Source of the DNA: an uncultured virus (IMG/VR IMGVR_UViG_3300020165_000001)
Lineage: Duplodnaviria; Heunggongvirae; Uroviricota; Caudoviricetes
Length of the DNA stretch: 64,000 nucleotides
Strand: one strand, 5' to 3'
IMG/VR virus record: IMGVR_UViG_3300020165_000001
Both the position numbers and the translations under genes were made by a program. The notes beneath the pieces were generated by a model. It did not search any database, was not told where the DNA came from, and was given only the letters and a program-made list of their open reading frames with translations. The first letter of the stretch is position 1; every line of letters begins with the position of its first letter. Positions 14,572 to 26,687 of the stretch are shown piece after piece.

Positions 14572-14733
14572 TTAATCTTTATCTCCAAACAATTGAACAG
14601 CTAAATACATTGGAAGTACAATAATACCTGCTACAATCAATGAAAATAATACGGGGCCAACAACAAAAACTGCTGCCGCAATAAGCGTTACAGCTATCAT
14701 TGGGTATTTACCTATAAGGCTATATTTTTTCAT
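14572..14733 (-). CDS. Small membrane protein (53 aa, not in track)
   Basis: MKKYSLIGKYPMIAVTLIAAAVFVVGPVLFSLIVAGIIVLPMYLAVQLFGDKD. Confidence 0.55.
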   Translation of the reverse strand: MKKYSLIGKYPMIAVTLIAAAVFVVGPVLFSLIVAGIIVLPMYLAVQLFGDKD

Positions 14734-16009
14734 AATCTGTAAATTTAGTTATTTCACTTTTAAAAGTTAGAGTCACCTCCCCGACACCTATATTCCTACC
14801 TTTAGCAAATATAATATTGGCGGTTCCCTGACTATTTTCTCCATTATCATTAAACTCTATTCCATAATACTCAGGACGATATATAAGCATTACTACATCA
14901 GCAGCTTGCTCTATCTCGCCTGATTCTCTAAGATCAGATAATGTTGGTTTGCTATTGTTACGATTACCAACACCTCTATTTAATTGACTTAGTGCTATTA
15001 CAGTGATATTTAACTCTTTAGCTAGATTTTTAAGAGTTCTAGCTACTTGACTTACTTCTTGTTCTCTAGTTCCAGACTTACTTTTACAACTAATTAACTG
15101 TAAGTAGTCTATCATAACAAGCTTAACATTTTTATTTTTTACATATTCTTTAATCCTATGCACTAAATAATTTAATGATGTTATATTACCTTCGTCTATA
15201 TGTAATGGAGTTTCTTGTATAGCATAAATTGACTCATGTATTTTCTTAAGCTCATCATCGTTTAAAGTTCCATTAGTAATATACCTGTTGCTAATACCAG
15301 AATCCATAGAAGCAAGCCTTCTAAGCAATTGTAACGCACTCATTTCGTAAGAAAACACAACAGTAGGTGTATTGGTGTATAAAGCAGCGTTATAAGCTAA
15401 GGCAAGCGCAAAACTAGTCTTACCCATTGATGATGCTCCTCCTACAATAATTAAATCTGTTTCTTGCCAGCCACCAGTAAACCTATCTATAGCTTGAAAT
15501 CCTGAAGCAATTCCTAGTAAGCCATCACTATTCATTCTTATTTCTATATCATCTAAGAAATCTTTAATCTGAGAATTTATATCTCCTAAAATTTCTGGCT
15601 TACCTATTTGTAGCTTTGACATTTCTGTAGTTAAATTACCAACTATAAGCTCTAATTCATCTCTGTTGCTTAGTTGATTATGTACATCATGTACTATACC
15701 AGTAAGTGTGCGTTTTTGAAACTCTTCTGTTAGCACGCCTACACATGTTATTACTTCCATAAAATCAAAGGCTCTATCAGTCATCTGTGATAATCCTAGT
15801 ACAACCTTATCTCCTTTAATTAGTTTAGATACTGTTAGTATATCTATAGTTTTACTTTTGCTGTGCAGTTCTATGATAGCGTGGTATGTAGATTTATTAA
15901 AATCATACTCAAACAAATCTTCGTGCAATAGCATACTGTATTTATCTATTAATTCTGGCTTTACTATAAGCTTGCCCAGTAATGTTTCTTCTATTTCATT
16001 GTTATCCAT
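14720..16009 (-). CDS. dnaB: Replicative DNA helicase
   Basis: GGASSMGKT (Walker A), MIDYLQL (Walker B), LSQLNR, LSDLRESGEIEQAAD, AKGRN. Confidence 0.95.
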   Translation of the reverse strand: MDNNEIEETLLGKLIVKPELIDKYSMLLHEDLFEYDFNKSTYHAIIELHSKSKTIDILTVSKLIKGDKVVLGLSQMTDRAFDFMEVITCVGVLTEEFQKRTLTGIVHDVHNQLSNRDELELIVGNLTTEMSKLQIGKPEILGDINSQIKDFLDDIEIRMNSDGLLGIASGFQAIDRFTGGWQETDLIIVGGASSMGKTSFALALAYNAALYTNTPTVVFSYEMSALQLLRRLASMDSGISNRYITNGTLNDDELKKIHESIYAIQETPLHIDEGNITSLNYLVHRIKEYVKNKNVKLVMIDYLQLISCKSKSGTREQEVSQVARTLKNLAKELNITVIALSQLNRGVGNRNNSKPTLSDLRESGEIEQAADVVMLIYRPEYYGIEFNDNGENSQGTANIIFAKGRNIGVGEVTLTFKSEITKFTDYEKI

Positions 16010-16028
16010 AATTTTAAATTTTAGCTAA

Positions 16029-16036
16029 CAAATATA
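16029..16036 (-). promoter_or_regulatory. Bacteroidota-type -7 promoter element
   Basis: TATATTTG, intergenic, upstream of dnaB. Confidence 0.55.
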
Positions 16037-16039
16037 TCA

Positions 16040-16294
16040 TTATTCGCCATACTTACGCTTAGCATCAGCTTTTTCTTCAAGATAATTTTCTTCCATTCTT
16101 GCATCGTATTCATATTTTTCTTCTAGATCTTCAGTCCAATTTCCACATTCATTACATATATATCCTGTTGTATCTGTATGCTCCTTACAGGATGGGCATA
16201 TATCTGAATCAGAATACATTTCTACACTACAACAGTCTGATATCCAACTATCTTCAAAGCTGCTTCCACAGCAGGTAGTAACTTCATTACTCAT
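16040..16294 (-). CDS. Cys-rich zinc-ribbon protein
   Basis: CC, CC, CPSC and CNEC motifs; likely start MSNEV. Confidence 0.6.
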   Translation of the reverse strand: MSNEVTTCCGSSFEDSWISDCCSVEMYSDSDICPSCKEHTDTTGYICNECGNWTEDLEEKYEYDARMEENYLEEKADAKRKYGE

Positions 16295-16577
16295 AATTAT
16301 TATCTTTTTTAAATTCTTGAATAGCAATTTCTTTAGACGCACATATAGAATCCATTAAAGCATCGTATATATTTTCAATAGTTTCATCATTTGATTCATG
16401 CATAGAGTTGTCTATTTCTTTTTCATAAAGTTTTGCAACTTTAAGTAATTTATTAAATTTTTGCTTAACCTGATGAGAATGAGACCACTGCATAGTATGC
16501 AGCTGCTCACTCAAACATTTCACCAAGGCTAATGTAAAATTAATATCTAGATTGATTTTTGCATCTTCTAGTTTCAT
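16287..16577 (-). CDS. Hypothetical protein
   Basis: Likely start MKLEDAK overlapping the upstream stop. Confidence 0.5.
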   Translation of the reverse strand: MKLEDAKINLDINFTLALVKCLSEQLHTMQWSHSHQVKQKFNKLLKVAKLYEKEIDNSMHESNDETIENIYDALMDSICASKEIAIQEFKKDNNYE

Positions 16578-16771
16578 GATGGATTCTTGCTTAACCATCC
16601 TAAAGCGTGCTCAACAGCCTTATCTTTCTCTCTAGTAGGTGCTTTATCTACTATAACATTCATTAAATCTAAGATAACTCTTTTAGCATCTCTTGTTATA
16701 CTATTGTTAATGCATTTCATTTGAGAATTGTATAATTCTTCAAAGTATTGATTGTGTAGTTCGTCTATCAT
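16574..16771 (-). CDS. Hypothetical protein
   Basis: 65-aa coupled ORF. Confidence 0.5.
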   Translation of the reverse strand: MIDELHNQYFEELYNSQMKCINNSITRDAKRVILDLMNVIVDKAPTREKDKAVEHALGWLSKNPS

Positions 16772-17028
16772 TATATTACTGGTATTGTTCCTAATTTTTC
16801 AAATGTAGTGGATATAGCTCCACCATCATTACCTTCATCATCCATCATTGGTACTAACCAATATTTATTATCTAACTGAATAGCTATTGGGCGCTTATAC
16901 CACATATTATCTTCCATTTCATGTCTAGTCATATATTCTACTTTTGTTATTTTCTTGCCAACTAAATGTTTAGCAATTTTTTCTGTCCAGTATTGTTCTA
17001 CTGGTTTTCCTTCAATTTTGCACTCCAT
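16771..17028 (-). CDS. Phage hypothetical protein (DDEGNDGG motif)
   Basis: LVGKKITKVEYM...MDDEGNDGGA. Confidence 0.6.
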   Translation of the reverse strand: MECKIEGKPVEQYWTEKIAKHLVGKKITKVEYMTRHEMEDNMWYKRPIAIQLDNKYWLVPMMDDEGNDGGAISTTFEKLGTIPVI

Positions 17029-17177
17029 AATTCATTTATTTTATTAAATTCTTCTATTAATATATTTTCTTCATTATCTGATAATTTTAAAAATCCTTGT
17101 ATGTATAAATTAAATAATTCAAAAATACTTGGATTGTAACCAAACTTTTCTTTATAATTTTTTATTATTGTTTCCAT
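16998..17177 (-). CDS. Hypothetical protein (59 aa, not in track)
   Basis: METIIKNYKEKFGYNPSIFELFNLY..., ATG17177 to TAG16998. Confidence 0.45.
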   Translation of the reverse strand: METIIKNYKEKFGYNPSIFELFNLYIQGFLKLSDNEENILIEEFNKINELWSAKLKENQ

Positions 17178-17190
17178 AATTTATTTATTT

Positions 17191-17535
17191 TTATTGTGCT
17201 GCCCATCCAATAAAGTAAAAAGCTTTGATACCTTTCTTGCCTTTATAACCTCTACTTTCTTTCATTTTTTTTAAGACTGCTCCTGTTATTTCTATACATA
17301 TACAGCTTCCCCATTTTTCTGCAAATTCTAGCATACTATCTTCCCACTTCCAAAACGCTTTAGTTGCATATCTTGGATTGTCATCACGCATTTTAAAGCC
17401 TGATGTTGTTGATATTGTACCATTGTAACTATCATGACCATAATCATGTAATGCATCCTCTACTAAGCTGTTATAAGCTTCTGAGGCGTTTTTGTATCTA
17501 CCGACTGCCAAATTTCCAAAATTTGTTGCTCCCAT
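17191..17535 (-). CDS. Phage early hypothetical protein
   Basis: MGATNF...YGHDSYNGTIST...KWG...FIGWA. Confidence 0.6.
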   Translation of the reverse strand: MGATNFGNLAVGRYKNASEAYNSLVEDALHDYGHDSYNGTISTTSGFKMRDDNPRYATKAFWKWEDSMLEFAEKWGSCICIEITGAVLKKMKESRGYKGKKGIKAFYFIGWAAQ

Positions 17536-17559
17536 AATTTTATTATTTTAATTAATTAA

Positions 17560-17586
17560 TAATAGTAAAAGGGGGCGTTAGCCCCC
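17560..17586 (-). promoter_or_regulatory. TAAC-loop hairpin plus TTTACTATTA cassette
   Basis: Minus strand GGGGGC-TAAC-GCCCCC-TTTTACTATTA. Confidence 0.7.
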
Positions 17587-17597
17587 TCTCATGTTGT

Positions 17598-18467
17598 TTA
17601 ATAATTTAACAAAAACTTATATGCGTTTTCGTTCATTTTACCAGCAGATCCAGTAATAATACTTTCTTGCTTACCATTTTTCCTTAATGGTGCTGACTTA
17701 TGATGTGTTGTATATTTAGTTATACCATTAAATACACCCCATTTAGTATGTGATATTCTAGACATTTCACTATCTATACAATGTGCTATATCATATATCA
17801 TATTTTGTTTTCTAGAAGACATATCTTTTTCTGTAGCCATTCTATCTGTATTTGTTAAATAATCTATTAAATCATTTACCAAAGTAGGTGTAGCAGACTG
17901 ATCGCTAAATCTTTGCAAGTTAGCAATCTTTTCTTCTTGTGATGTAAAGTTAATTATAGCAGGCAATTCTTTTACTTTATCCTGTATAGACTGTGTATGT
18001 CTATAACCTGATATTGCATTAGAATTTAACCAGCCAAATTGATTTTGACAGAATATTACTTTATTCATAAATCCAAACTTAAGGCTACTAGATCCATCAT
18101 GACTGTTAATAGCATATATGTATTGTTCAGTGTCCTGCCCACCTATAACTACATGGTTATTAGGGCGTTTCATCTGTACCATTACTTTTCTACCTTCGTT
18201 AAAAGGCATTGCTTTTACTATTTCTAAATCATTCTGACCAGCAATTTCTTGCATAGTTTCTATAATAGTATGATTTTGTGTAGGAGTGTACGCTTCTTTT
18301 ACTGTAGCAAATACTTCTCCAGTATCTTCTCTTACTATACCATAGTAGTCTGTAGAGTGTAATCCATTGTTAGCATCTGTTGTGCATTCTCCTGCATAAA
18401 GCAGTGGTTTCTTAACTACATTCCAGTTAAGTCCATTTTGTTCTAAAATTTCTTCTGTATTAAGCAT
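17598..18467 (-). CDS. DUF932/DUF945-family protein
   Basis: GLNWNV...YTPTQN...NSHDGSSS...CQNQ...RHT...TKWGVFNGIT. Confidence 0.85.
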   Translation of the reverse strand: MLNTEEILEQNGLNWNVVKKPLLYAGECTTDANNGLHSTDYYGIVREDTGEVFATVKEAYTPTQNHTIIETMQEIAGQNDLEIVKAMPFNEGRKVMVQMKRPNNHVVIGGQDTEQYIYAINSHDGSSSLKFGFMNKVIFCQNQFGWLNSNAISGYRHTQSIQDKVKELPAIINFTSQEEKIANLQRFSDQSATPTLVNDLIDYLTNTDRMATEKDMSSRKQNMIYDIAHCIDSEMSRISHTKWGVFNGITKYTTHHKSAPLRKNGKQESIITGSAGKMNENAYKFLLNY

Positions 18468-18927
18468 AATCTAATTCTAATTTAGTTAATAATTCTTCTG
18501 GTGTTCCATGAAATATCTCTGTAGCTTCGCTTCTACTATCTATTTCATACACTGTTAGGTGTATTTGTTTATCTTCTTCTGATATTTCATATAGATATTC
18601 TTCCCAGCATTCTGAAGCGTCAGGATGCATACAGTATATACCTCCTACATTAGATGTTGGTGTTCCATCATCTTTGCATCCGCTTGATTTAAAATGTACA
18701 AACATTTGTGCTGCTAGACAGTCCATACCATTAAACATAGGCTCAGACTTATCTAAAGGTATACCATTTACAACTGTATATCCAGATAACCATTCTGCTA
18801 ATTCAGCACCATGACCACTCATGTAGCCGTCATATTGACGGTACATACATGTAAGTGGTTGTCTGTGTTTTTTACCTGTTGTATCTTCCCAGGTTCTTAT
18901 TACTTTAGTTAATGATCTAGTTCCCAA
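18460..18927 (-). CDS. Phage early hypothetical protein
   Basis: MGTRS...MYRQYDGY...NGMDCLAAQ...EYLYEI; TTG start. Confidence 0.65.
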   Translation of the reverse strand: MGTRSLTKVIRTWEDTTGKKHRQPLTCMYRQYDGYMSGHGAELAEWLSGYTVVNGIPLDKSEPMFNGMDCLAAQMFVHFKSSGCKDDGTPTSNVGGIYCMHPDASECWEEYLYEISEEDKQIHLTVYEIDSRSEATEIFHGTPEELLTKLELDYA

Positions 18928-18928
18928 A

Positions 18929-19105
18929 TTATTTTGTTTTATTTGTTAATGACTCTGATATTGTTTCTGTTATCAATGACAACACTTTTGCATACGCTTC
19001 ATTTGATCCTAAGCGATATTCTTCAGATCTATTATCTGTATTTTCTCTGCTTATTGCAAGCTCCAGCTCTACAAGAGTTGCTATTTTACCTATTAGTATT
19101 TCCAT
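18929..19105 (-). CDS. Hypothetical protein (58 aa, not in track)
   Basis: MEILIGKIATLVELEL...; fills the gap exactly. The listed + ORF 18934-19119 is its shadow. Confidence 0.55.
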   Translation of the reverse strand: MEILIGKIATLVELELAISRENTDNRSEEYRLGSNEAYAKVLSLITETISESLTNKTK

Positions 19106-19107
19106 AT

Positions 19108-19317
19108 CTATTGTTTTAGTTCTTTAATTTCCCAATTTTCATGAGCTATATCCATTTGCTCAAGTTCTTTTTCAGCTATTAGCGCCCATAAACCCTCATC
19201 ACCAGATAAGACTTTATCGTTAATAGTTGTTTTATGATCTCTTCCATCATCAGGAAATTTTAAAAACACACTTGTAGTATATTCTCTAGTTACTCTAAGT
19301 TCATATTCTTTATGCAT
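19108..19317 (-). CDS. Hypothetical protein
   Basis: 69-aa ORF in the operon. Confidence 0.5.
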   Translation of the reverse strand: MHKEYELRVTREYTTSVFLKFPDDGRDHKTTINDKVLSGDEGLWALIAEKELEQMDIAHENWEIKELKQ

Positions 19318-19414
19318 TGTCTTTTATTAATTTAGTCATTAATTTTACTAGCTTTTCCATAGCTTCAGCTAGTCTCTTGATGTCATTAGCTAGTTCTTGA
19401 TCTAATCTAGTCAT
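19310..19414 (-). CDS. Small coiled-coil peptide (34 aa, not in track)
   Basis: MTRLDQELANDIKRLAEAMEKLVKLMTKLIKDNA; overlaps both neighbours. Confidence 0.5.
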   Translation of the reverse strand: MTRLDQELANDIKRLAEAMEKLVKLMTKLIKDNA

Positions 19415-19655
19415 GGTAATAGCTTGTAATTCTTTCTATAATTCCTCTACCGTTAGCTGTATGAAACCCATAGCTATGTGTATGAAGCTCAGGTATTGGT
19501 TTGTTTTCTAATAACAAATATAGTAAGTCCCATTCGTTGTCATAATCCATATCTTCACGAGTTTGGTTTACAGCTTGTGCTAGTGCATAGACATCATGCC
19601 TTGGCTCACAATTAAGCGTGTTTATTATATATGATTCTACCTCTTGTCCACTCAT
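19407..19655 (-). CDS. Hypothetical protein
   Basis: 82-aa ORF. Confidence 0.5.
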   Translation of the reverse strand: MSGQEVESYIINTLNCEPRHDVYALAQAVNQTREDMDYDNEWDLLYLLLENKPIPELHTHSYGFHTANGRGIIERITSYYHD

Positions 19656-19659
19656 AATA

Positions 19660-19947
19660 TTAATGTTCTTGTTGGTCTTTAAAACTTGTAAAGCTCTTTG
19701 CTTTAACTACATTAGTTTTTTTATTTCTGTCAATATATTGAACGGCTTTTAATCCCTCCCATATTTCAGTTTCTCTTTTTACTACTTTGTAGCATTCTTC
19801 AATTAACATTTCTCTCTGTATTTCTACAGGTTTAGTTGGATTAACTGTGATGCTTTGCCCATAGTTAATCTTTACTGCTTCAAAGTTGCCTATATTTATA
19901 GACTTACTTACATTGAATGATATTGATGTTGTTTCTATTTTACTCAT
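19660..19947 (-). CDS. Hypothetical protein
   Basis: SINIGNFEAVKI motif; 95 aa. Confidence 0.55.
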   Translation of the reverse strand: MSKIETTSISFNVSKSINIGNFEAVKINYGQSITVNPTKPVEIQREMLIEECYKVVKRETEIWEGLKAVQYIDRNKKTNVVKAKSFTSFKDQQEH

Positions 19948-20216
19948 CTTTTAAATTGTTTTAAGTTTAAAAATCTTAACATATCTTTTTTAAGATCTGT
20001 TGTTTTATTTCTTAGCTTTTCCATTTCAAAGTATAAACCTCTTTCACCAAGATATGTATTGCTAATGCTTTCCAGTCTGTCTTTTAAATTATTAACAGAA
20101 GGTATTAGTTTGTTTTTAATAATAGTAAGTTCTTTCTGTCTCTCTATGTATGCTCTCCATGCATCGTAAGACTCATAAACTCTTTCTCCTATTTTTCTAA
20201 TTCTCATTGGTTCCAT
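19944..20216 (-). CDS. Hypothetical protein
   Basis: 90-aa ORF. Confidence 0.5.
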   Translation of the reverse strand: MEPMRIRKIGERVYESYDAWRAYIERQKELTIIKNKLIPSVNNLKDRLESISNTYLGERGLYFEMEKLRNKTTDLKKDMLRFLNLKQFKR

Positions 20217-20748
20217 TTACTTTAATTTTAGCAGGCTTAATATCAGCCACGTTAATACTTATTGTTTCTGTTTCTTCTCCACATGAAAGACATTTAGCTT
20301 CATATTCATCATCAAATAATACTTCTGCTTCACAGCATTCTGAAGCTGCGTCTAAGTCCCATGTAAAATCATCCCATATTACTTCATACTGTGCTGATAG
20401 TCTACCACCAAAGCACATGCCTGGCTCTTCGTATTCTAACGTAAAACATAAGTCGGGAAAATCTTGCATAATATTGTCTACCCATTGTATAGGAGGGCCC
20501 CAAGCTGATTCAAAGTTTACAGAAAAGTAATCTTTATCATCATGGTTTATATGTGGTTCGCAAGCATCCCATTTAGTTCCCCAATTAGCTATACTCCATT
20601 CATACCAATCTTTACGATCACCACGAGGAAGCGTTCCTTCAAATGAAAACTCTGTTTCTTTATGAGCATTCATAGATTTTTCTACAAATTCATGTAGTTG
20701 TTTTTCGTCACCTGATACTTCTAGGTGATTCCAGCACCAATTTGGCAT
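20197..20748 (-). CDS. DUF1281/YubB ferredoxin-like-domain protein
   Basis: MPNWCWN...WYEWSIANWGTKWD...FESAWGPP...YEEPG. Confidence 0.8.
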   Translation of the reverse strand: MPNWCWNHLEVSGDEKQLHEFVEKSMNAHKETEFSFEGTLPRGDRKDWYEWSIANWGTKWDACEPHINHDDKDYFSVNFESAWGPPIQWVDNIMQDFPDLCFTLEYEEPGMCFGGRLSAQYEVIWDDFTWDLDAASECCEAEVLFDDEYEAKCLSCGEETETISINVADIKPAKIKVNGTNEN

Positions 20749-20769
20749 AATTATTTGTTTTTAGTTAAT

Positions 20770-21227
20770 AAAAAAGGAAGAGAGTAGTAGGATAACAGCA
20801 AACGTTAGTTATCATTCCGTGGCCACACGCTACCACTACTCTCAACCTATTAATACACAACCCTTGAGTGACTGAAACTACTCTTCACCAGTGTTGTAGA
20901 TATGTAAAAAAGAACAGGCTATAGTACAGCTCGCGAGATGTCTATGACACAGACTATATTCGTGCTTGGTACAGTAAGAGAGCTACTCTTACTAAGTAAA
21001 TACGTATATAGTATTTACAGCCTTATTTTATACCTGTTCTTATAACAAAAAGAGGTAGGTTGAATCAGACCGATAGCGAGGAAAACCCTCTTTAGCATGC
21101 TATCTATATGTAACAACCCTTGGCATAGGATTTAGCTACTGTGTACCTACCTCTCTTATAACAAGAAAGAGGTTAGTGATGCATGCTTTTAAGCTGCCTG
21201 CAGGGCTTCTGCGCACGTCTCTTTCTT
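20770..21227 (-). ncRNA. Tandem array of candidate structured RNAs
   Basis: ORF-free region of about 460 nt with four consecutive multibranch elements closed by 8-10 bp perfect stems. Confidence 0.55.
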
Positions 21228-21619
21228 TATATTTGTGATGCTAATGCTTTAATCTGTTCGGGACTAATGCGACTAGCAATTGTTTTATATTTAGTTTTAA
21301 ATCTAGCTCTATGCTTAGTAAAAGCATTTACTATCTTATAGTATCTAGATATGTGTTTTCTTCTTAATGACTTATATTCTTCATTAGCCATATTTACTCT
21401 TTTTATAAATTCATTATATTTAGAGAATTTTCTTACAGCACCGCTAAGGTATTGTATTTCAAGTGTTTTAGCATTCTTGTAGTGTATAATACTGTCTGCA
21501 TATTTCTTTCTAAATGATGCATGTGCGATATCATATTTACTGATGTCAGGTGATTTTGCATCAATTAGTTTTTTTAAATCTTTCAGATAAGCTGAAGTAA
21601 TTTCATAAGGTTCTTTCAT
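21227..21619 (-). CDS. Basic hypothetical protein
   Basis: 130-aa ORF preceded by the early motif. Confidence 0.55.
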   Translation of the reverse strand: MKEPYEITSAYLKDLKKLIDAKSPDISKYDIAHASFRKKYADSIIHYKNAKTLEIQYLSGAVRKFSKYNEFIKRVNMANEEYKSLRRKHISRYYKIVNAFTKHRARFKTKYKTIASRISPEQIKALASQI

Positions 21620-21648
21620 GGTAAAAAGTTTTAGTTAGTATTATAGAG

Positions 21649-21682
21649 AATAGTAAAAAAGGAAGGAGCGTTAGCTCCGACC
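21649..21682 (-). promoter_or_regulatory. TAAC-loop hairpin plus TTTACTATT cassette
   Basis: Minus strand GGAGC-TAAC-GCTCC-TTCCTTTTTTACTATT. Confidence 0.7.
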
Positions 21683-21685
21683 TGT

Positions 21686-21937
21686 TTATTTGTAGTTGTT
21701 TAATTCTTCTTCTGTCAACGGTTTAGGTGTTAATGCTGTGAATATAGAGAATAATACTCCTGCAATAACAGCTGTAGCTAAGCCACTGAATGTACCTATA
21801 AATAACATAGGTAGTAATACGGTAAACAGTATGTCCCAGAATGTCTGAGTCTTTACTAGTCTACGCCTGCCTAAGGCTTTATATACTATGATATAATAAC
21901 CTATGGCAGCGAAGAATGCAGTTCCAATGATACTCAT
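21686..21937 (-). CDS. Small multi-pass membrane protein
   Basis: About three hydrophobic segments; LFIGTFSG...AGVLFS. Confidence 0.6.
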   Translation of the reverse strand: MSIIGTAFFAAIGYYIIVYKALGRRRLVKTQTFWDILFTVLLPMLFIGTFSGLATAVIAGVLFSIFTALTPKPLTEEELNNYK

Positions 21938-22245
21938 TAGAATGGCAGATTTTCTACAGTTTCTGTTAATTCTGCTTTAGCAGCAGCTTGAGGATTGTAG
22001 TCATTATGACTCATACTGTGAGTGAATTTACTACCCTCTTTGTTACTCCATACATCTGTTTGAACATAACCATTTGCATTTACATTCTCTTTCATCCAGT
22101 TGCAGAACTTTCTTGCATCAAAGTTTATCTTCATTAAAGTGTTACCATTATCAAATGTTATTTCTTTAATAAATACTCCTGATGCGAAATTAGTTTCTTT
22201 CTTTGCTACTGATTTCTTTGTTGCTTTTTTTGCTTTTGTTGCCAT
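21937..22245 (-). CDS. Small possible ssDNA-binding protein
   Basis: FASGVFIK...NANGYV, basic N-terminus, C-terminal ENLPF. Confidence 0.45.
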   Translation of the reverse strand: MATKAKKATKKSVAKKETNFASGVFIKEITFDNGNTLMKINFDARKFCNWMKENVNANGYVQTDVWSNKEGSKFTHSMSHNDYNPQAAAKAELTETVENLPF

Positions 22246-22308
22246 TTTTAGTTTAGTGGTTAAGCCACAAGCTATTAATTAATAATTAGTTTATTGTAAA
22301 TAGTAAAA

Positions 22309-22373
22309 ATAATCCCCTACGACTTGCACGCCAAGGTCCACTTTGCCACAAGGGCAGATTAGACAGGGATTAT
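22309..22373 (-). ncRNA. Candidate small structured RNA with its own upstream motif
   Basis: ATAATCCC/GGGATTAT closing stem, two inner hairpins, U-tract; TTTACTATTA at 22387-22396 just upstream. Confidence 0.5.
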
Positions 22374-22463
22374 ATATTGTTATAGTTAATAGTAAATAAC
22401 TAGAAGTTATAGAAGTATAGTTTATTAACTAAGTCTATATCCTTAAGATAGATGTTTAATATG

Positions 22464-23117
22464 TTATACACTTTCAATAAGTTTATTCATGTTTTTAGAA
22501 TCATCCATAAAATCGTTTTTACGCATAGCTCTAAATCCATCTTCTTGAGCATATTCTACCCATCCTCTTACAGATGATTGAATAATAAATTTATTGCATA
22601 TTAAATCAGCAATTTCATTAGGTTGTCCTGGTTCCGTTGGCCAACCATCAAATAACATAGTTAGTATATCTCCACGATTATCTTTATACCATCTTCCACT
22701 TACTAATATAGTTGTACCTTTCTTTGCTTCAGATATGAAATAGTCCATTGTTTCTTTAAATGAAATTCTTTCAGTTTCCGAATCACTAAAGTATATATCT
22801 ATTGTAAAGGGTAATAGCTCTTTTTGTTCAATATCTAGATAGTCACCTGTTTCTAAGAACCATTTATAAGCTTCTGCTCCTGTTTTATTTATTCCATGAT
22901 AATAATGGTGATAAACAAAATGTGGAGAGTTGTTAGTAGGTGCTATTGTATTTTGTATATTTATTAATAGATCAGTTAAAGTTTTGTGATTACGAGTGTA
23001 CTCGCCTGTTTCTATTAAATGTTCAATCCATCCTTTACATTTTTTTAGTATTTCTGATGAGCGTTCATTAGCATCATCCCATCCTCTTTCATATTCTGTG
23101 TCAATTAAATTTTCCAT
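22464..23117 (-). CDS. Hypothetical protein
   Basis: 217-aa ORF. Confidence 0.55.
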   Translation of the reverse strand: MENLIDTEYERGWDDANERSSEILKKCKGWIEHLIETGEYTRNHKTLTDLLINIQNTIAPTNNSPHFVYHHYYHGINKTGAEAYKWFLETGDYLDIEQKELLPFTIDIYFSDSETERISFKETMDYFISEAKKGTTILVSGRWYKDNRGDILTMLFDGWPTEPGQPNEIADLICNKFIIQSSVRGWVEYAQEDGFRAMRKNDFMDDSKNMNKLIESV

Positions 23118-23152
23118 AGTTTTATATTTGTTTAGTTAATGTTTAGGTTAAA

Positions 23153-23274
23153 AAGAGTAAGCCTCTTGAGTGTGATGGTACCCCCATCTGCTCTTTTATA
23201 GCGTAGTGATACTTCAATATATCACTATGTACTATAGTTATTAATGAGCTCTCACGCAAGTTAAGACTTACTCT
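23153..23274 (-). ncRNA. Candidate multibranch structured RNA
   Basis: AGAGTAAG/CTTACTCT closing stem; inner GATGG/CCATC and TAGTGATA/TATCACTA stems; U-tract on the minus strand. Confidence 0.5.
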
Positions 23275-23290
23275 CTTATGTAAAGAGCGA

Positions 23291-23584
23291 CTAATCCACT
23301 CTTATGTTTACGTCTCTTATAGAATAACAGTAATCTTGTACCATATCCTCAAAGCAAGTAGACCAATCTATGAATGGCATATTTACTAATTGCATATCTA
23401 TTACTGCTTTATCTTTAGCACGCTGTTCCATTATATCGTGTAAAGGTTCTACTTTGTATGTATGGAATACTGGTGTATCCATATGAATTGTTGTTGAGCA
23501 AGATGTACACTCAACTAAGTTGTGTGAATGCTCAAATGCTGTTGTGCTGTTGCAGTTATTGCAACTAATGTCTGTAAGTTTCAT
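23291..23584 (-). CDS. Zinc-ribbon protein
   Basis: CNNC...CTSC. Confidence 0.55.
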   Translation of the reverse strand: MKLTDISCNNCNSTTAFEHSHNLVECTSCSTTIHMDTPVFHTYKVEPLHDIMEQRAKDKAVIDMQLVNMPFIDWSTCFEDMVQDYCYSIRDVNIRVD

Positions 23585-23624
23585 ATAATAATATGTATTA
23601 GTAAGTAATTAGTTTATCTATTAT

Positions 23625-23654
23625 TAATAGTAAAAAAGGGAGCCGTTAGGCTCC
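23625..23654 (-). promoter_or_regulatory. TAAC-loop hairpin plus TTTACTATTA cassette
   Basis: Minus strand GGAGCC-TAAC-GGCTCC-CTTTTTTACTATTA. Confidence 0.75.
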
Positions 23655-23659
23655 GATTA

Positions 23660-23881
23660 TTAGAATGGTAAGTCATCATCATTTCCTTTTGATACTTGAT
23701 TGATTTCGCAATGCAACCAATTTTCATATGATAATGGGTTATCATTGCAATTATTGCAATAAGTTTTGTAATCAGACTGAAGTTGTTCTTGGATACGTTG
23801 ATGTTCTTCGGGTGTTGTGTCTCGCATTGTAGGTACTCCGTCTTTGTCATCAAATACTACGTTTTTAGATTTGTCAAGCAT
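23660..23881 (-). CDS. Small early protein with SSB-like C-terminal tail
   Basis: Likely start MLDKSK (ATG23881); ends GNDDDLPF. Confidence 0.55.
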   Translation of the reverse strand: MLDKSKNVVFDDKDGVPTMRDTTPEEHQRIQEQLQSDYKTYCNNCNDNPLSYENWLHCEINQVSKGNDDDLPF

Positions 23882-23954
23882 TTTATTATATGTATTGATT
23901 AATGTTATTATTAATAGTAAATATATGCGGAGCAATTAGAGTGATATATTATTA

Positions 23955-24020
23955 GTGAGTGAAACGAACACAGTAATGATGAGAGATAAGCGAGCAGTTC
24001 GTAGAACATATTTGCGAGCA
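23955..24020 (+). other. Strand-specific ssDNA-type hairpins (GNA triloops, tandem G.A pairs)
   Basis: GTGAGT-GAA-ACGAAC and GCGAGC-A-GTTC-GTA-GAAC-ATATTT-GCGAGC. Confidence 0.55.
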
Positions 24021-24030
24021 GTGTAAAAGA

Positions 24031-24046
24031 GGAGCCGTTAGGCTCC
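24031..24046 (-). terminator. Conserved TAAC-loop hairpin
   Basis: GGAGCC-TAAC-GGCTCC-TCTTTTAC, identical stem to 23639 and 24318. Confidence 0.7.
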
Positions 24047-24066
24047 GTCTATTGGAATGGTTAGTT

Positions 24067-24273
24067 TTACCACCACCAATCATCACTCCTACTCTCATCA
24101 TAAGCTTTCTCTGCTTTATTTGCTTTATCTATATCAGCTTTTTTATGCTTATAGATATATTTATTGTGCTTTACACTCAATCTATAAAATAGATGGTATT
24201 GTGATATAGTCAAATTCACTCCTCTGTCTCTACAGAATGCATTTAATAATATTGCTTGTCCTACTGTCATCAT
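24067..24273 (-). CDS. Hypothetical early protein
   Basis: 68 aa, ends DDWWW; preceded by the early motif. Confidence 0.5.
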   Translation of the reverse strand: MMTVGQAILLNAFCRDRGVNLTISQYHLFYRLSVKHNKYIYKHKKADIDKANKAEKAYDESRSDDWWW

Positions 24274-24304
24274 ATCTTTATATGTTTTAGTTAATACTTA
24301 TTAA

Positions 24305-24333
24305 TAATAGTAAAAAAGGAGCCGTTAGGCTCC
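24305..24333 (-). promoter_or_regulatory. TAAC-loop hairpin plus TTTACTATTA cassette
   Basis: Minus strand GGAGCC-TAAC-GGCTCC-TTTTTTACTATTA. Confidence 0.75.
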
Positions 24334-24339
24334 ATAGTT

Positions 24340-24522
24340 TTAAATAGATAGTTCATAATAATCTATCATTGATAATGGTTTTGTATTGATTGTTTCTAAA
24401 AAGTCACAATAAATAAACCATTCTAATTTTAATGTTTTAAATTCTTTTAGTGATTGAATTTTATCAGCCACTAAGTTGTTGAAGATATTTAATTCTTCTT
24501 GTGTTGTGATTATCTCACTCAT
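24340..24522 (-). CDS. Hypothetical early protein
   Basis: 60 aa; motif at 24554-24563 upstream. Confidence 0.5.
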   Translation of the reverse strand: MSEIITTQEELNIFNNLVADKIQSLKEFKTLKLEWFIYCDFLETINTKPLSMIDYYELSI

Positions 24523-24567
24523 AATGTATATATATTAATTAATAACTTATTATTAATAGTAAATATT

Positions 24568-24710
24568 TAATCAGCTAAATATATTAAGGAATATAGTTTG
24601 TTGTAAAAAATAGCTAGAACGCTTGACAATGTCATTTAAAATGTATAACTTCGCAAACTCAATAGTTAGTTATTATACTAATCAGCTAAATATATTAGAA
24701 CATATAGTTT
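24568..24710. repeat. 19-bp exact (about 32-bp imperfect) direct repeat in AT-rich non-coding DNA
   Basis: TAATCAGCTAAATATATTA at 24568-24586 and 24679-24697, each followed 4 nt later by ATATAGTTT. Confidence 0.8.
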
Positions 24711-24887
24711 ATACTTATTATAATCATTACTAATGTATTAATTGATTGATTATCAATGTTTTAACTTAATACTTATAGTGTTTATAGGTATTATAGTATA
24801 GTTATTAAGGGTGTTAGACTGTATCACACTCACACTTATATCCGCAATATTTATAGTATTTTCACAGATAATGTTAAAAAAAGAGAA

Positions 24888-25025
24888 CTAATTGTTCTCT
24901 CTTATTTCTTTTTTAGCTTCTTTGATACCTTGTTTAACGCCTTCTGATATACCAACGTATATTCCGACCATTGTACCTACTGTCTTACCAGTTAAAACTG
25001 CTGCTTTGTTTACTAAATCTTTCAT
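24888..25025 (-). CDS. First gene of the minus block (45 aa, not in track)
   Basis: MKDLVNKAAVLTGKTVGTMVGIYVGISEGVKQGIKEAKKEIRENN; TTTACTATT motif 32 nt upstream; AGAGAAC/GTTCTCT hairpin with T-tract at the stop. Confidence 0.55.
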   Translation of the reverse strand: MKDLVNKAAVLTGKTVGTMVGIYVGISEGVKQGIKEAKKEIRENN

Positions 25026-25160
25026 GATATTTTTAGTTTAATTAATACTTATTTAAAATAGTAAAAAGAAAGATAGGGTGGGGTATCCAAAGATTTGAAA
25101 ACCAAGGGGGGTTTTAGGCATATAGTATCCCTCCCTCACAAAAAAAATAAAAATTTTTTA

Positions 25161-25168
25161 TATCTTTG
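25161..25168 (+). promoter_or_regulatory. Bacteroidota-type -7 promoter for the late block
   Basis: TATCTTTG, 21 nt upstream of ATG25190. Confidence 0.65.
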
Positions 25169-25189
25169 TAAAAACTTAAACCTTACGCT

Positions 25190-25735
25190 ATGACACAAGA
25201 AGATCAAAATCTACAAAGCTTATTCGCTAATTTAAATCAAGTATCCCGAAATTCTATGATAAGAGAGAAGGTTGGAGGAGGTACAGGTGGTGGTTCTAAT
25301 ATAGCAGAAGGGACTATGGATCCAAATACATTAATGACAGGTAATCCATATATTGCTAAGAATGTTGTTGAGTTTAATCAAGGAGGAATGGTAGGAGCAT
25401 CAGGTGCGCCAACAATGAATAATCCTTATATTGAAAAGATGAATCAATTAGTAGGCTTACAGCAAATGGTGAATGTAGGAAAAGGTTTAGCAAATAACGT
25501 CTTACAACAAGAAGCTATGATGTCTGCTCCTCAAGCAAACTACGGGATGAAAAGAAAGTATCAAGAAGGAGGAAACTTTCCACACAACATGTATCATCCA
25601 AAAACTGGATACAAAATAGTAGCAGAAGATAATGACGCACATACTAAATTAGCTAAGGCTGGATTTGGTCATACGCCTAAAGCTGCTTATGGTATGAAAA
25701 TGAAAAAAAGATACACTAACGGGGGTAGATTCTAA
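25190..25735 (+). CDS. Hypothetical protein with repeated (F/Y)xxGG and AxYGMK motifs, probably virion-internal
   Basis: FNQGG, ANYGMK, YQEGG, AAYGMK, YTNGG. Confidence 0.55.
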   Translation: MTQEDQNLQSLFANLNQVSRNSMIREKVGGGTGGGSNIAEGTMDPNTLMTGNPYIAKNVVEFNQGGMVGASGAPTMNNPYIEKMNQLVGLQQMVNVGKGLANNVLQQEAMMSAPQANYGMKRKYQEGGNFPHNMYHPKTGYKIVAEDNDAHTKLAKAGFGHTPKAAYGMKMKKRYTNGGRF

Positions 25736-26418
25736 TGGATGAAATAGGACTAAACGAACTATTACAATTAATCATAAAAGAAAAAGGAGGTACACCTCAG
25801 CAGTATAACAAGATGATGGATTATATTGCTTTCCATGAAACTGGTCATAAGCAGAGAATGGATCCTAAAGCTAAACAGATTTCAGGTAATGAGAAGGATG
25901 GATTTTTTGATGGACCTGGAAGAGGTTTGTTTCAGTTTGAAGTAGGAGAAAATAAAGGAGGTAACTTAGCAGTTAATAGAACCGTTAATTATTTAGAAAG
26001 AAATGATCAGTTTGTGCCTCAGTGGTTAAGACAGTTATGGAGAGGCAAAAAAAGTGTTGATGTAAGTAAATTAAATGCCGATCAACAAAAGATGTTATTC
26101 TTAGGTTACCATAGAGAGCATCCTACATCTGACTTTACTAAGGTATGGAATAATAAACAAACTGTACAAAACTTTTGGGCTGAGAATCACTGGGCTGGAG
26201 ATAAAGAAAACCTTACAGCTAAACTAGCTTTATTTAATAAGAATATAACTGCAAAGGATTCTATTGACGCATTAAACATTAGAAAATCTGAGTTGTTTGG
26301 TCAAGACGATAAAGTTCCTTTTCAATCAGCTCAGAAAGATCCTAATAGATTACCTAAAGAATCTGATATATTAAAAAGCATATTTGGACAACAAACATCA
26401 TCTTTAATAAAACAATGA
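25735..26418 (+). CDS. Lysozyme-fold / lytic transglycosylase-like protein
   Basis: IAFHET (candidate catalytic Glu) and GRGLFQF. Confidence 0.55.
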   Translation: MDEIGLNELLQLIIKEKGGTPQQYNKMMDYIAFHETGHKQRMDPKAKQISGNEKDGFFDGPGRGLFQFEVGENKGGNLAVNRTVNYLERNDQFVPQWLRQLWRGKKSVDVSKLNADQQKMLFLGYHREHPTSDFTKVWNNKQTVQNFWAENHWAGDKENLTAKLALFNKNITAKDSIDALNIRKSELFGQDDKVPFQSAQKDPNRLPKESDILKSIFGQQTSSLIKQ

Positions 26419-26687
26419 GAGAAATAAACAGAGAAGATGGTAAGGTGTATACAATAGATGATTTCTATTTTTTGGAAAAGAATTATATAGATTTAGGTAA
26501 ATTAATAGAAGATGAAAAGTGGATTGTTAGTAGGTCTAAAAAAAATGGGTTTAGAGTTGTAAAATCTAACTGGTATATGCAAGATAATCCAGACTTTACA
26601 ATTGAGAGCGTTATCTATGGCACAACTCCTAAGCATACTAGTCCTATACGATATATGTTTAAATTACAATTAGAATATACTAAATAA
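26415..26687 (+). CDS. Hypothetical protein
   Basis: 90-aa coupled ORF. Confidence 0.5.
   Translation: MREINREDGKVYTIDDFYFLEKNYIDLGKLIEDEKWIVSRSKKNGFRVVKSNWYMQDNPDFTIESVIYGTTPKHTSPIRYMFKLQLEYTK

What the first reader, a model, noticed from the sequence alone, without database searches (positions are those of the whole stretch)
20770..21227. Tandem array of four multibranch structured elements: candidate phage small-RNA cluster
Seen: about 460 ORF-free nt in a gene-dense block, tiled by elements with perfect closing stems. These are GAGAGTAGT/ACTACTCTC (20780-20843), AGAACAGG/CCTGTTCT (20911-21040, with inner AGTAAGAG/CTCTTACT and GTAAATAC/GTATTTAC), AGAGGTAGGT/ACCTACCTCT (21051-21154) and AAGAAAGAG/CTCTTTCTT (21163-21227). 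A small hairpin lies at about 20857-20897. On the minus strand each stem is followed by a U-rich run, and the linker TTATAACAA is repeated (21040, 21156). Three G.U pairs in element 3 favour the minus strand; elements 2 and 4 are ambiguous. The inner sequences differ from each other, so this is not CRISPR. Inference: a polycistronic precursor of distinct 65-130 nt RNAs, such as decoys or antitoxin/tRNA mimics against host defence, or regulators.
Basis: partly seen in the sequence, partly recalled or inferred. Interest (0 to 1): 0.85.

Follow-up and report, generated by a model that had tools for sequence, protein, structure and literature searches.

The report
Modular structured-RNA array in crAss-like phage
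A 480-base gene-free stretch in an aquatic crAss-like phage holds five self-folding RNA units stacked behind a small gene; related phages swap these units like cassettes and they turn up in ocean RNA libraries, but what they do is still unknown.

Summary
Window 20749-21226 is intergenic in a distant crAss-like phage and is tiled by four multibranch elements plus one hairpin, at the coordinates given. The RNA strand is the minus strand, the same as the flanking genes. In E2, E3 and the hairpin, 9 of 11 variable base pairs stay paired through G.U on the minus strand; 0 of 11 do on the plus strand. Two elements are real RNA families with compensatory changes: E1 (37 variants) and E3 (a divergent homologue). 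E2 and E4 exist only as near-identical copies. No Rfam family and no tRNA match. The elements are independent modules, and related phages carry different subsets and orders, with other modules in the same frame. Each is a closing stem followed by a U-run. They sit where this phage otherwise has plain gene-end hairpins. Contigs from three metatranscriptomes cover mainly the array, but give no strand or end information. My reading: terminator-clamped, stable non-coding RNA cassettes co-transcribed with the upstream 130-aa gene, with inner domains that have a sequence-specific but unknown role. The decoy or tRNA-mimic idea is untested, and tRNA mimicry is not supported. This is a new variant of a known kind.

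The parts
21227..21619 (-). ORF130, a basic 130-aa protein of unknown fold. The array starts at its stop codon.
   Evidence: ORF list. No Pfam or PHROG hit. The model has pLDDT 85.8 but no fold match: Foldseek best E 1.3, VIA best Z 5.7. Homologues precede E1 in 36 of 53 distinct upstream ORFs.
21163..21227 (-). E4: a 65-nt element with a 9-bp closing stem and two inner hairpins. Its first stem base lies inside the stop codon of ORF130.
   Evidence: z -2.03. Two 65-nt versions were recovered: one shared by the window and 13 loci, the other (L060) lacking only the first base where that locus ends. This includes phages whose ORF130 homologue is only 54-55% identical. No covariation test is possible.
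21154..21162 (-). Linker GUUAUAAGA, copy 1, between E4 and E3.
   Evidence: the only two exact copies on this strand in the block are here and at 21038-21046. L017 lacks E3 exactly between the two copies.
21049..21156 (-). E3: a 108-nt three-way junction with an 11-bp closing stem and conserved unpaired AUAG, GCUAA and CGGUCNGAUUC.
   Evidence: z -3.46. Model R2 finds 15 near-identical copies and 4 divergent ones. On alignment A8, 99.1% of cells are paired, 12 of 33 pairs change on both sides, and 0 of 500 shuffles reach the covariation score.
21038..21046 (-). Linker GUUAUAAGA, copy 2, between E3 and E2.
   Evidence: In L098 and in RNA contig X19 rec11, another module sits at this linker.
20911..21040 (-). 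E2: a 130-nt four-way junction with a closing stem and three inner hairpins.
   Evidence: z -3.61. Three variants in 10 loci, with both variable pairs kept through G.U on the minus strand only. No divergent homologue found.
20853..20903 (-). Small irregular hairpin that precedes E1 in some genomes.
   Evidence: z -0.92, not significant. Among 7 variants, 4 of 5 variable pairs are kept through G.U on the minus strand only. Present before E1 in L120, L089 and L098; absent in L105 and L108.
20765..20851 (-). E1: a roughly 65-nt three-way junction (P1 closing stem; P2 CGUG-UGGC-CACG; P3 GAUAAC...GUUAUC) in the frame AAUAGGUU...UUCCUUUUUU.
   Evidence: Model R1 scores 89.1 bits here, and E1 is single-copy in the window. 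Across 37 variants, 98.3% of cells are paired and 7 pairs change on both sides, all in the closing helices; 0 of 500 shuffles reach the score. Found on 21 IMG/VR contigs and 54 metagenome stretches.
20749..20779 (-). U-run and leader (UUAUUAACUAAAAACAAAUAAUU) up to the AUG of the next gene.
   Evidence: Conserved together with E1 in front of three different genes.
20197..20748 (-). Downstream gene: 183 aa with a DUF1281_C (Api92-like ferredoxin-like) domain.
   Evidence: Pfam PF18406, E 2e-10. 40 related loci found.
23140..23280 (-). A further unit of the same build outside the finding: a 14-bp closing stem, a multibranch interior and a U-run, just after ORF 23291-23584.
   Evidence: z -7.29, 0 of 200 shuffles.
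21665..21678 (-). A plain gene-end hairpin GGAGC-UAAC-GCUCC followed by UUCCUUUUUUACUAUU. It is the simple form of the same frame. Others lie at 17566-17591, 23639-23654, 24031-24046 and 24318-24333.
   Evidence: (14 terminator-like sites against 4.0 +/- 2.1 expected in 14000-26000).

Best explanation
The array is a stack of five autonomous RNA modules on the minus strand. It is transcribed together with the upstream 130-aa gene of a distant, aquatic crAss-like phage. Each module is an elaborated form of the phage's own gene-end signal, a G/A-rich stem followed by a U-run, in which the short loop is replaced by a structured domain of 45-110 nt.

Shown: the structures exist and are selected at the RNA level on this strand. 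E1 and E3 are conserved families with compensatory changes. The modules are exchanged, lost and reordered as units between related phages. The region is present in RNA libraries.

Inferred: the closing helix plus U-run acts as a leaky terminator, a 3'-end former and an exonuclease clamp. This would sequester both ends, so the modules accumulate as stable non-coding RNAs, either as 3' tails of the mRNA or as released pieces.

Inferred more weakly: the invariant inner cores (E1 GCGUGUGGCCAYGGAAUGAUAACUAA; E3 CGGUCNGAUUC) contact a conserved phage or host factor, for example as decoys or regulators. What that factor is, is unknown.
For: Strand and selection. In E2, E3 and the hairpin, 11 base pairs vary. 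9 stay canonical on the minus strand through A-U/G-C to G.U changes; 0 of 11 do on the plus strand. E1 has GC/GU alternation at two pairs, in 6 and 17 of 37 sequences.

Covariation. E1: 7 pairs with changes on both sides, 98.3% of cells paired, 0 of 500 shuffles reach the score, and slid controls give 38-71% paired. E3: 12 of 33 pairs, 99.1% paired, 0 of 500.

Modularity. L017 lacks E3 exactly between the two GUUAUAAGA linkers. L098 = E4-E3-B-E2-hp-E1; L120 = E4-D-hp-E1; L105 = E3-D-E1; L108 = E3-insert-E1. In L023 and L079 an E3-like unit follows E1.

Modules are far better conserved than their neighbours. L017's ORF130 homologue is 53.6% identical in protein. Its E4 is 97% identical and its E2 96% identical in DNA.

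Same place and frame as plain gene-end hairpins. E1 lies 5-13 nt after a stop codon in 26 of 60 listed contexts. It follows DUF932 homologues in 11 of 53 distinct upstream ORFs, where the window itself has a plain hairpin at 17566-17591. 26 modules in relatives share the frame AAUAGGUU...UUCCUUUUUU.

RNA libraries. X18 has a 523-nt contig equal to window 20743-21252 with 0 differences. X19 has a 488-nt contig over the array at depth 26.4, against 2-7 for contigs on the neighbouring genes. X20 has two contigs confined to the array. These come from three studies.

Precedent. In crAss-like phage phi14:2, two long intergenic regions are transcribed above most genes, early and persistently, with unknown function (bioRxiv 10.1101/2020.03.07.982082, passages read).
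Against: There are no strand-specific or end-mapped RNA data. The RNA evidence is assembled contigs, which cannot show strand, ends or level. DNA carry-over is not excluded, and neither is pooled coverage from several strains that share the modules but differ in the flanks.

The contigs bridge the linkers, so release of separate small RNAs is not shown.

E2 and E4 have no covariation because only near-identical copies were found. The hairpin's fold is not better than shuffles. Fold z-scores are similar on both strands.

E3's compensatory changes rest on one deep split of two sequences, in an alignment fitted to the model.

E1's invariant core is partly forced, because most copies were retrieved with a pattern inside it.

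No partner protein or RNA was found. No RNA-related protein is encoded in the window. There is no antisense target of 13 nt or more in the right orientation. No look-alike appeared in 401 sampled genomes of one phylum.

G.T pairs would also be tolerated in folded single-stranded DNA of this strand.
Confidence: 0.55

Rival explanations
1. Purely cis-acting gene-end signals. On this view the array is a run of tandem intrinsic terminators or insulators that also serve as recombination points for cassette shuffling, like PeSL promoter-terminator motifs. The decorated loops would have no function of their own.
For: The frame and position are the same as the plain hairpins after stop codons. Indel boundaries fall at the repeated linkers and frames. 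The motif TTTTACTATT follows many hairpins: 47 matches against 28.9 +/- 4.7 expected. PeSLs are described as composite terminator/promoter sequences that mediate indels (PMC4122927, abstract read).
Against: The inner cores of E1 and E3 stay invariant while their closing stems change by compensatory substitutions, so they are under selection of their own. Plain 14-26-nt hairpins do the terminator job elsewhere in the same block, so 480 nt is costly for that role. If each unit terminated well, the downstream units and the gene without an evident full promoter motif would not be transcribed.
Confidence: 0.2
2. Regulated attenuators. Each unit would bind a protein or small ligand that stabilises or opens its closing stem, setting read-through into the downstream genes. 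This would resemble tandem riboswitches or antitermination sites.
For: The architecture is a P1 stem directly followed by a U-run, with conserved junction nucleotides and variable peripheral hairpins. This is seen in E1, E3 and family B of relatives. The position is inside an operon, upstream of a gene.
Against: The gene downstream of E1 differs between phages, with at least three unrelated starts. Closing stems of 9-14 perfect pairs should fold without help. No Rfam riboswitch matches, even at E up to 10.
Confidence: 0.1
3. New self-cleaving ribozymes or processing signals that cut a long transcript into pieces. Mixed clusters of small ribozymes and associated motifs in phage-like DNA are known (recalled).
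For: The units are tandem and unlike each other, 50-130 nt long, with covarying outer stems and invariant junctions. One weak match to RAGATH-7 in a relative: L003 2710-2875, 25.7 bits against a gathering score of 111.8, E 0.09.
Against: No match to any ribozyme family in Rfam at E up to 10 over the array. The hammerhead core motifs are absent on reading the sequence. RNA contigs run across the units uncut. The RAGATH-7 hit is far below threshold.
Confidence: 0.06
4. DNA-level elements: folded single-stranded DNA sites such as recombination sites, hairpin promoters or a replication or packaging signal.
For: The inverted repeats with repeated 9-nt linkers resemble an insertion with a target duplication. 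G.T pairs are tolerated in single-stranded DNA. Each of E1-E3 holds an 8-nt palindrome.
Against: The units are always co-oriented with the genes and placed right after stop codons. U-runs occur on one strand only. The region is present and enriched in RNA-library contigs. No recombinase, transposase or integrase gene was seen next to them.
Confidence: 0.05
5. Small protein-coding genes hidden in the stretch.
For: ORFs of 31, 33 and 35 aa overlap the region.
Against: E1 variants differ by 1-nt and 3-nt indels inside the 31-aa ORF. Module indels of 38, about 80 and 112 nt are mostly not multiples of three. Substitutions follow pairing, not codon positions.
Confidence: 0.02

Closest known systems
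PeSL composite promoter-terminator motifs of T4-like phages (Arbiol 2010, search listing only; Comeau 2014 PMC4122927, abstract read)
   Same: Both are short stem-loop plus promoter-like sequences between early or variable genes. Both recur along the genome and mark the boundaries of insertions, deletions and swaps between related phages.
   Different: PeSLs are plain hairpins. Here the loop is replaced by conserved multibranch domains of several unrelated families, stacked up to six in a row, with selection on the inner sequence.
Bacterial intrinsic (Rho-independent) terminators
   Same: A G+C-rich stem immediately followed by a U-run, placed a few bases after a stop codon.
   Different: The enclosed 'loop' is 45-110 nt with its own helices instead of 3-8 nt. 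Several units follow one another, and a gene without an evident full promoter motif follows the last. Termination itself was not tested.
Abundant early non-coding transcripts of crAss-like phage phi14:2 (Drobysheva et al., bioRxiv 10.1101/2020.03.07.982082, passages read)
   Same: Same phage order. Both are long intergenic regions among small genes, co-oriented with them, with RNA at or above the level of coding genes and no known function.
   Different: No sequence or model similarity: R1, R2 and R3 find nothing in phi14:2 1-9000. The phi14:2 region is 1.7 kb and holds a tmRNA-like gene. The modular frame is not seen there.
Y RNAs and adenovirus VA RNAs (recalled, not from a call)
   Same: Small abundant RNAs whose 5' and 3' ends pair in a long terminal stem ending in a U-run, with a structured central domain. 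VA RNAs act as decoys. Bacterial Y RNAs can lie in tandem.
   Different: No Ro60/TROVE gene in the window and no Rfam Y RNA match. Ends, abundance and partners are not established here.
Phage tRNA gene clusters
   Same: Tandem, unlike, 65-130-nt structured RNAs with short spacers in a variable region. Gene content differs between related phages.
   Different: No cloverleaf, T-loop or anticodon arm. ARAGORN finds 0 genes in the window and in 39 loci.

Membership tests
tRNA / tRNA-like | Cloverleaf with a 7-bp acceptor stem, D, anticodon and T arms, and a T-loop motif | tested here: not met
   ARAGORN finds 0 genes in the window and 0 in 39 related loci. Reading E1-E4 shows no T-loop.
Any Rfam 15 family, including ribozymes, riboswitches, Y RNA and IMES motifs | Covariance-model score at or above the family's gathering score | tested here: not met
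   0 matches in the window and in 20 loci. At E up to 10 over 20600-21400 only three chance-level hits appeared, the best being MIR1887 at 20.6 bits against 90. In relatives the best was RAGATH-7 at 25.7 against 111.8.
Intrinsic terminator | G+C-rich stem directly followed by a U-run on the transcribed strand | tested here: met
   Closing stems of 9-11 bp followed by UUCCUUUUUU (E1), UUUUUU (E2), UUUUUG (E3) and UUGUUAU (E4, weak).
Intrinsic terminator | Short loop (about 3-8 nt), a single hairpin | tested here: not met
   The enclosed regions are 45-110 nt with 2-3 inner helices.
Intrinsic terminator | RNA polymerase releases the transcript there | not testable with these tools
   This needs Term-seq or in vitro transcription. 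The RNA contigs cross the units.
PeSL-like promoter-terminator cassette | Recurring stem-loop plus promoter motif at the boundaries of indels between related phages | tested here: met
   The hairpin plus TTTTACTATT motif recurs, with 7 exact copies on the minus strand. Module indels end at frames and linkers.
PeSL-like promoter-terminator cassette | The element is only a simple hairpin with no conserved interior | tested here: not met
   Conserved interiors in E1 and E3.
CRISPR array / RNA anti-CRISPR | Near-identical direct repeats separated by unique spacers | tested here: not met
   The four elements are unlike each other. E1 is single-copy in the window. The only repeat is the 9-nt linker.
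Type III antitoxin (ToxI-like) array | Tandem identical repeats of about 36 nt next to an endoribonuclease toxin gene | tested here: not met
   The units differ in sequence and length. The neighbours are ORF130 (no family) and a DUF1281_C protein.
Riboswitch | Aptamer upstream of a consistent class of genes | tested here: not met
   At least three unrelated genes follow E1 in different phages. No Rfam riboswitch hit.
Y RNA | Adjacent Ro60 (TROVE) gene and a conserved Ro-binding bulged stem | tested here: not met
   No TROVE domain in 54 window proteins scanned. No Rfam Y RNA match.
phi14:2 early long non-coding RNAs | Homology to the g004-g006 intergenic regions | tested here: not met
   R1, R2 and R3 give no match in phi14:2 1-9000. 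blastn of the region against 50,697 phage records gave no match.

The most novel reading that the evidence does not exclude
Aquatic crAss-like phages would carry a cassette system for RNAs. It would comprise at least eight unrelated families of structured RNA domains, each mounted in one common stem-plus-U-run frame that gives termination and stability. The cassettes would be stacked behind an early gene and traded between phages by recombination at the frames. The array would then be an RNA counterpart of the variable anti-defence gene islands of phages, with each cassette a decoy or inhibitor aimed at a different host factor.
Probability: 0.2. Interest if true: 0.88.

Novelty: new variant of a known kind. 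Interest (0 to 1): 0.62.

Why it matters
crAss-like phages are among the most abundant viruses of Bacteroidota, and their early biology is poorly known. A published RNA-seq study of one member already found unexplained, very abundant non-coding transcripts.

This locus offers defined, compact RNAs for study. E1 is about 65 nt and has 37 natural variants. E3 has compensatory changes in its helices. Both can be synthesised, probed and used as baits.

If the common frame really confers stability and 3'-end formation on any enclosed domain, it is a natural RNA scaffold. It would also show how phages could evolve and exchange functional RNAs as modules, much as they exchange genes.

If instead the units are only elaborate terminators, they still show that gene-end hairpins can be hot spots for the birth of new structured RNAs.

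Tried and rejected
- Named phage relatives: blastn (distant) of 20700-21300 and megablast of 15000-27000 against 50,697 phage records gave no match. The capsid protein matches crAss-like phages at only about 26% identity.
- Whole genome: none is held for this window.
- Earlier notes of this scan: nothing relevant by place, sequence or words.
- E1 core in 185,579 prokaryote genomes: 6 exact matches to a 19-nt pattern, none with E1 context.
- Array DNA against 401 sampled genomes of one phylum: only short low-complexity hits, best E 0.0018. No host RNA that the elements might mimic was found in those searched.
- Divergent E2 homologues: model R3 found only near-identical copies in 94 sources.
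- Divergent E1 in 18 related loci that lack the core pattern: only one weak frame-level hit, L007 at 23.3 bits.
- Linker GUUAUAAGA as a genome-wide motif: 39 matches with up to 1 mismatch against 42.7 expected, so not enriched.
- UAACUAA as an enriched motif: 39 against 33.4 expected, so not enriched.
- Antisense targets of the array in the window: nothing of 13 nt or more in a transcribed orientation apart from A/T-rich leader repeats.
- ORF130 function: no Pfam, PHROG, PDB-sequence or ESM Atlas lead, and no fold match.
- RNA-related enzymes in the window: none among the 54 proteins scanned.
- A crude scan for any 7-bp stem plus U-run gave 81 hits, mostly chance. It was not used as a statistic.
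- Literature: four full-text searches found no description of such arrays in crAss-like phages. One search on marine phage small RNAs found nothing relevant.
- Parts of the laid stretch without RNA-contig cover are not taken as evidence of silence.
Full report
**Context.** The window is a phage of the crAss-like group. Its proteins match the Crassvirus major capsid protein, the crAss muzzle and ring proteins, the P22-like portal and crAss-type terminase families. It is distant from every named phage: the capsid is about 26% identical to gut crAss-like phages, and there is no DNA match among 50,697 phage records. DNA runs labelled marine, aquatic-viral and freshwater metagenomes hold half or more of the sampled words of 19000-23500 (12 rows). 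The finding lies in a block of minus-strand genes running from about 8 to 25 kb. That block includes a DnaB helicase, a PD-(D/E)XK exonuclease, Rad52 and DUF932 proteins, and many small unknown ORFs. The stretch 20749-21226 separates ORF 21227-21619 (130 aa, here ORF130) from ORF 20197-20748 (183 aa, DUF1281_C).

**The observation.** The stretch folds well beyond shuffled controls on both strands: z -4.86 on minus and -4.01 on plus, with 0 of 100 shuffles as good in each case. Taken singly on the minus strand, E1 (20780-20843) scores z -3.06, E2 (20911-21040) -3.61, E3 (21049-21156) -3.46 and E4 (21163-21227) -2.03. The small hairpin (20853-20903) scores -0.92, which is not significant. Plus-strand values are similar, so energy alone cannot name the strand.

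**Strand and selection.** I fetched related DNA through the two flanking proteins (51 loci). I also searched with a pattern from the E1 core, which gave 21 IMG/VR contigs and 54 metagenome stretches. In E2, E3 and the hairpin, 11 base pairs vary among the variants. Nine stay canonical on the minus strand, because the changes are A-U or G-C to G.U. None of the 11 stays canonical on the plus strand. In E3, variable columns are 4 of 66 paired and 7 of 42 unpaired. In E1, two pairs alternate between G-C and G.U, in 6 and 17 of 37 sequences. These are structures of the minus strand, the strand of the genes.

**E1 is a family.** It has 37 distinct variants. A covariance model (R1) aligns all of them. 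On that alignment 98.3% of cells pair. Seven pairs change on both sides, all in the closing helices. The covariation score is 0.244 against 0.147 for shuffles (0 of 500 reach it), and sliding the partners drops pairing to 38-71%. The closing stem takes forms such as GGGAGUA/UACUCCC, GGGGUGG/CCGCCCC and GGGGCAG/CUGCCCC, while the interior GCGUGUGGCCAYGGAAUGAUAACUAA does not change. Part of that invariance is forced, because most copies were retrieved by a pattern inside the core. However, 18 related loci without the pattern hold no intermediate form; the only hit is one weak frame-level match. E1 is single-copy in the window (89.1 bits on minus). It is absent from 185,579 prokaryote genomes at the level of the core pattern, where all 6 matches are chance hits.

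**E3 is a family too.** Model R2 finds 15 near-identical copies and four divergent ones in L079, L023, L024 and L085, at 46-47 bits. In the divergent form the closing stem, the GAUAGC/GCUAUC helix and the inner GAGGG/UCCUC helix are all rewritten with pairing kept. The unpaired AUAG, GCUAA and CGGUCNGAUUC segments stay, and the first hairpin is replaced by another. Counted on the model alignment, 99.1% of cells pair, 12 of 33 pairs change on both sides, and 0 of 500 shuffles reach the score. Two caveats apply: this rests on one deep split of two sequences, and the alignment is fitted to the model.

**E2 and E4.** These were found only as near-identical copies. E2 has 3 variants in 10 loci. E4 has one 65-nt sequence shared by the window and 13 loci, plus one copy cut short by one base at a locus end. 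Their structure therefore rests on energy, on two wobble-compatible changes in E2, and on their behaviour as modules.

**Modules.** The units come and go as wholes. L017 lacks E3 exactly between the two copies of the linker GUUAUAAGA, and L002 has an extra 38 nt between E2 and the hairpin. Other orders are E4-E3-B-E2-hairpin-E1 (L098), E4-D-hairpin-E1 (L120), E3-D-E1 (L105), E3-insert-hairpin-E1 (L089) and E3-insert-E1 (L108). In L023 and L079 an E3-like unit follows E1. B and D are further families seen only in relatives. B has conserved CUUAACGAAU and ACGGUAAACUAG around a hairpin whose sequence differs while pairing is kept: ACCG/CGGU, GGAUAU/AUAUCC and CCGUG/CACGG. A scan of all loci found 26 distinct modules in the shared frame AAUAGGUU-stem...stem-UUCCUUUUUU. 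These fall into E1, B, D and several singletons. The modules are much better conserved than their neighbours. L017's ORF130 homologue is 53.6% identical in protein, yet its E4 and E2 are 97% and 96% identical in DNA. This points to lateral exchange of modules, strong constraint, or both.

**Relation to gene ends.** The minus-strand block has plain hairpins with a UAAC loop followed by a U-run and the motif ACUAUUAUUAA, a few bases after stop codons. They lie at 17566-17591, 21665-21678, 23639-23654, 24031-24046 and 24318-24333. In 14000-26000 there are 14 terminator-like sites against 4.0 +/- 2.1 expected. TTTTACTATT is over-represented, with 47 matches against 28.9 +/- 4.7 expected and 0 of 100 shuffles reaching that count. 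The decorated units occupy the same position. E4's stem begins inside the stop codon of ORF130. E1 lies 5-13 nt after a stop in 26 of 60 listed contexts, some of which are the same contig fetched twice. E1 follows ORF130 homologues in 36 of 53 distinct upstream ORFs, DUF932 homologues in 11, and other ORFs in 6. In the window itself the DUF932 gene ends in a plain hairpin. At least three unrelated genes follow E1. Further units of the same build lie outside the finding, for example 23140-23280 with z -7.29. So the array is a stack of elaborated gene-end signals behind ORF130, with no room for a promoter between units.

**Expression.** Three runs on record as metatranscriptomes, from three studies, held small shares of 19000-23500. 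Laid on 17000-25500, those shares fall mainly on the array.
- X18 has a 523-nt contig equal to 20743-21252 without a difference.
- X19 has a 488-nt contig over E1, E2 and E3 at depth 26.4, while its contigs on neighbouring genes have depths of about 2-7. It carries 47 and 112 other letters at two linkers, as in the L002- and L098-type arrays.
- X20 has two contigs confined to 20786-21028 and 21048-21216.

These are contigs. They show neither strand, ends nor level. DNA carry-over and pooling of strains that share modules but not flanks could both inflate them, and they bridge the linkers. I take them as a moderate hint that array RNA accumulates, not as proof. There is a published precedent. 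In crAss-like phage phi14:2, two long intergenic regions are transcribed above most genes from the earliest time point and do not decline, with functions 'to be determined' (bioRxiv 10.1101/2020.03.07.982082, passages read). Those regions are not homologous to this array.

**What it is not.**
- Not tRNAs.
- Not any Rfam family, including ribozymes, riboswitches, Y RNAs and marine motifs.
- Not CRISPR or a ToxI-like repeat array, since the units are unlike each other.
- Not a gene-specific riboswitch, since the downstream genes vary.
- Not coding, given 1-nt indels in E1, module indels that are mostly not multiples of three, and substitutions that follow pairing.

**Mechanism, with odds.**
- About 0.85-0.9: these are minus-strand RNA structures under selection, organised as exchangeable modules.
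- 0.55 overall: they are co-transcribed with ORF130, and the closing helix plus U-run works as a leaky terminator, 3'-end former and exonuclease clamp. This lets the enclosed domains accumulate as stable non-coding RNA, whose invariant cores engage a conserved factor. This is inferred from the architecture, the position and the RNA contigs. The partner and the biological role are unknown.
- Rivals: pure cis terminators or recombination cassettes 0.2; regulated attenuators 0.1; new ribozymes or processing signals 0.06; DNA-level elements 0.05; small ORFs 0.02.

**Novelty.** Four full-text searches found no description of such arrays in crAss-like phages. Supplementary files of the phi14:2 preprint could not be seen and might list coordinates of its non-coding transcripts. 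The parts have known analogues: gene-end hairpins, PeSL-type cassette boundaries and abundant viral non-coding RNAs. The combination is not described: several unrelated conserved RNA domains, each mounted inside a common terminator-like frame, stacked and reshuffled between phages. I rate it a new variant of a known kind, with interest 0.62.

Noticed in passing
L133 (phi14:2 NC_021806) 4031-4502, + strand: The long intergenic region that the phi14:2 paper reports as an abundant non-coding transcript contains a tmRNA-like gene. ARAGORN calls a tmRNA with tag peptide GSSVQKLAMVA*. Rfam tmRNA scores 46.0 bits against a gathering score of 47, E 2.6e-16. A second T-arm-like piece lies near 1806-1843.
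   Followed up: partly
window 17566-17591, 21665-21678, 23639-23654, 24031-24046, 24318-24333 (minus strand): Recurrent gene-end hairpins with a C-UAAC-G loop, three of them the identical GGAGCCUAACGGCUCC. Each is followed by a U-run and ACUAUUAUUAA, and about 15 nt later by UUAACUAAAAC before the next AUG. Together these look like a composite terminator-promoter cassette.
   Followed up: partly
window 23140-23280 (minus strand): The most stable unit of this build in the window: a 14-bp closing stem with a multibranch interior, -46.7 kcal/mol, z -7.29. Only its 3' tail is conserved in the related loci held.
   Followed up: partly
window about 25060-25170 (minus strand): An intergenic element beginning GAGGGAGGGAUA... 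is 72-88% identical in L051, L049/L006, L047/L004, L022 and L021. Its fold is not better than shuffles (z -1.39).
   Followed up: partly
L002 2396-2436; also L089 and L108: An optional 38-nt insert between modules, made of two direct copies of ACCUGCWAUGCGGU separated by 10 nt. It is not in the window.
   Followed up: no
window 20821-20828, 20930-20937, 21094-21101, 21179-21186: E1, E2 and E3 each contain a perfect 8-nt palindrome (GUGGCCAC, CUCGCGAG, AGCAUGCU). E4 has overlapping 6-nt ones (AUGCAU, GCAUGC). These could allow RNA-RNA dimer contacts or be chance; no statistic was made.
   Followed up: no
L003, L004, L009, L011, L014, L087, L098, L102 (family B); L012, L076, L078, L087, L105, L120 (family D): Two more conserved RNA module families sit in the same frame in related phages but are absent from the window. 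Family B has a hairpin whose sequence differs between copies while pairing is kept.
   Followed up: partly
window 21227-21619 (minus strand): ORF130 is a lysine/arginine-rich protein. Its model is confident (pLDDT 85.8; two helices, three strands, then a 40-residue helix) but has no family or fold match. It is the gene most often found just upstream of E1.
   Followed up: partly
window 8568-9422 (minus strand): A phage gene matching spore photoproduct lyase / radical SAM (PF20903, E 1.8e-23).
   Followed up: no
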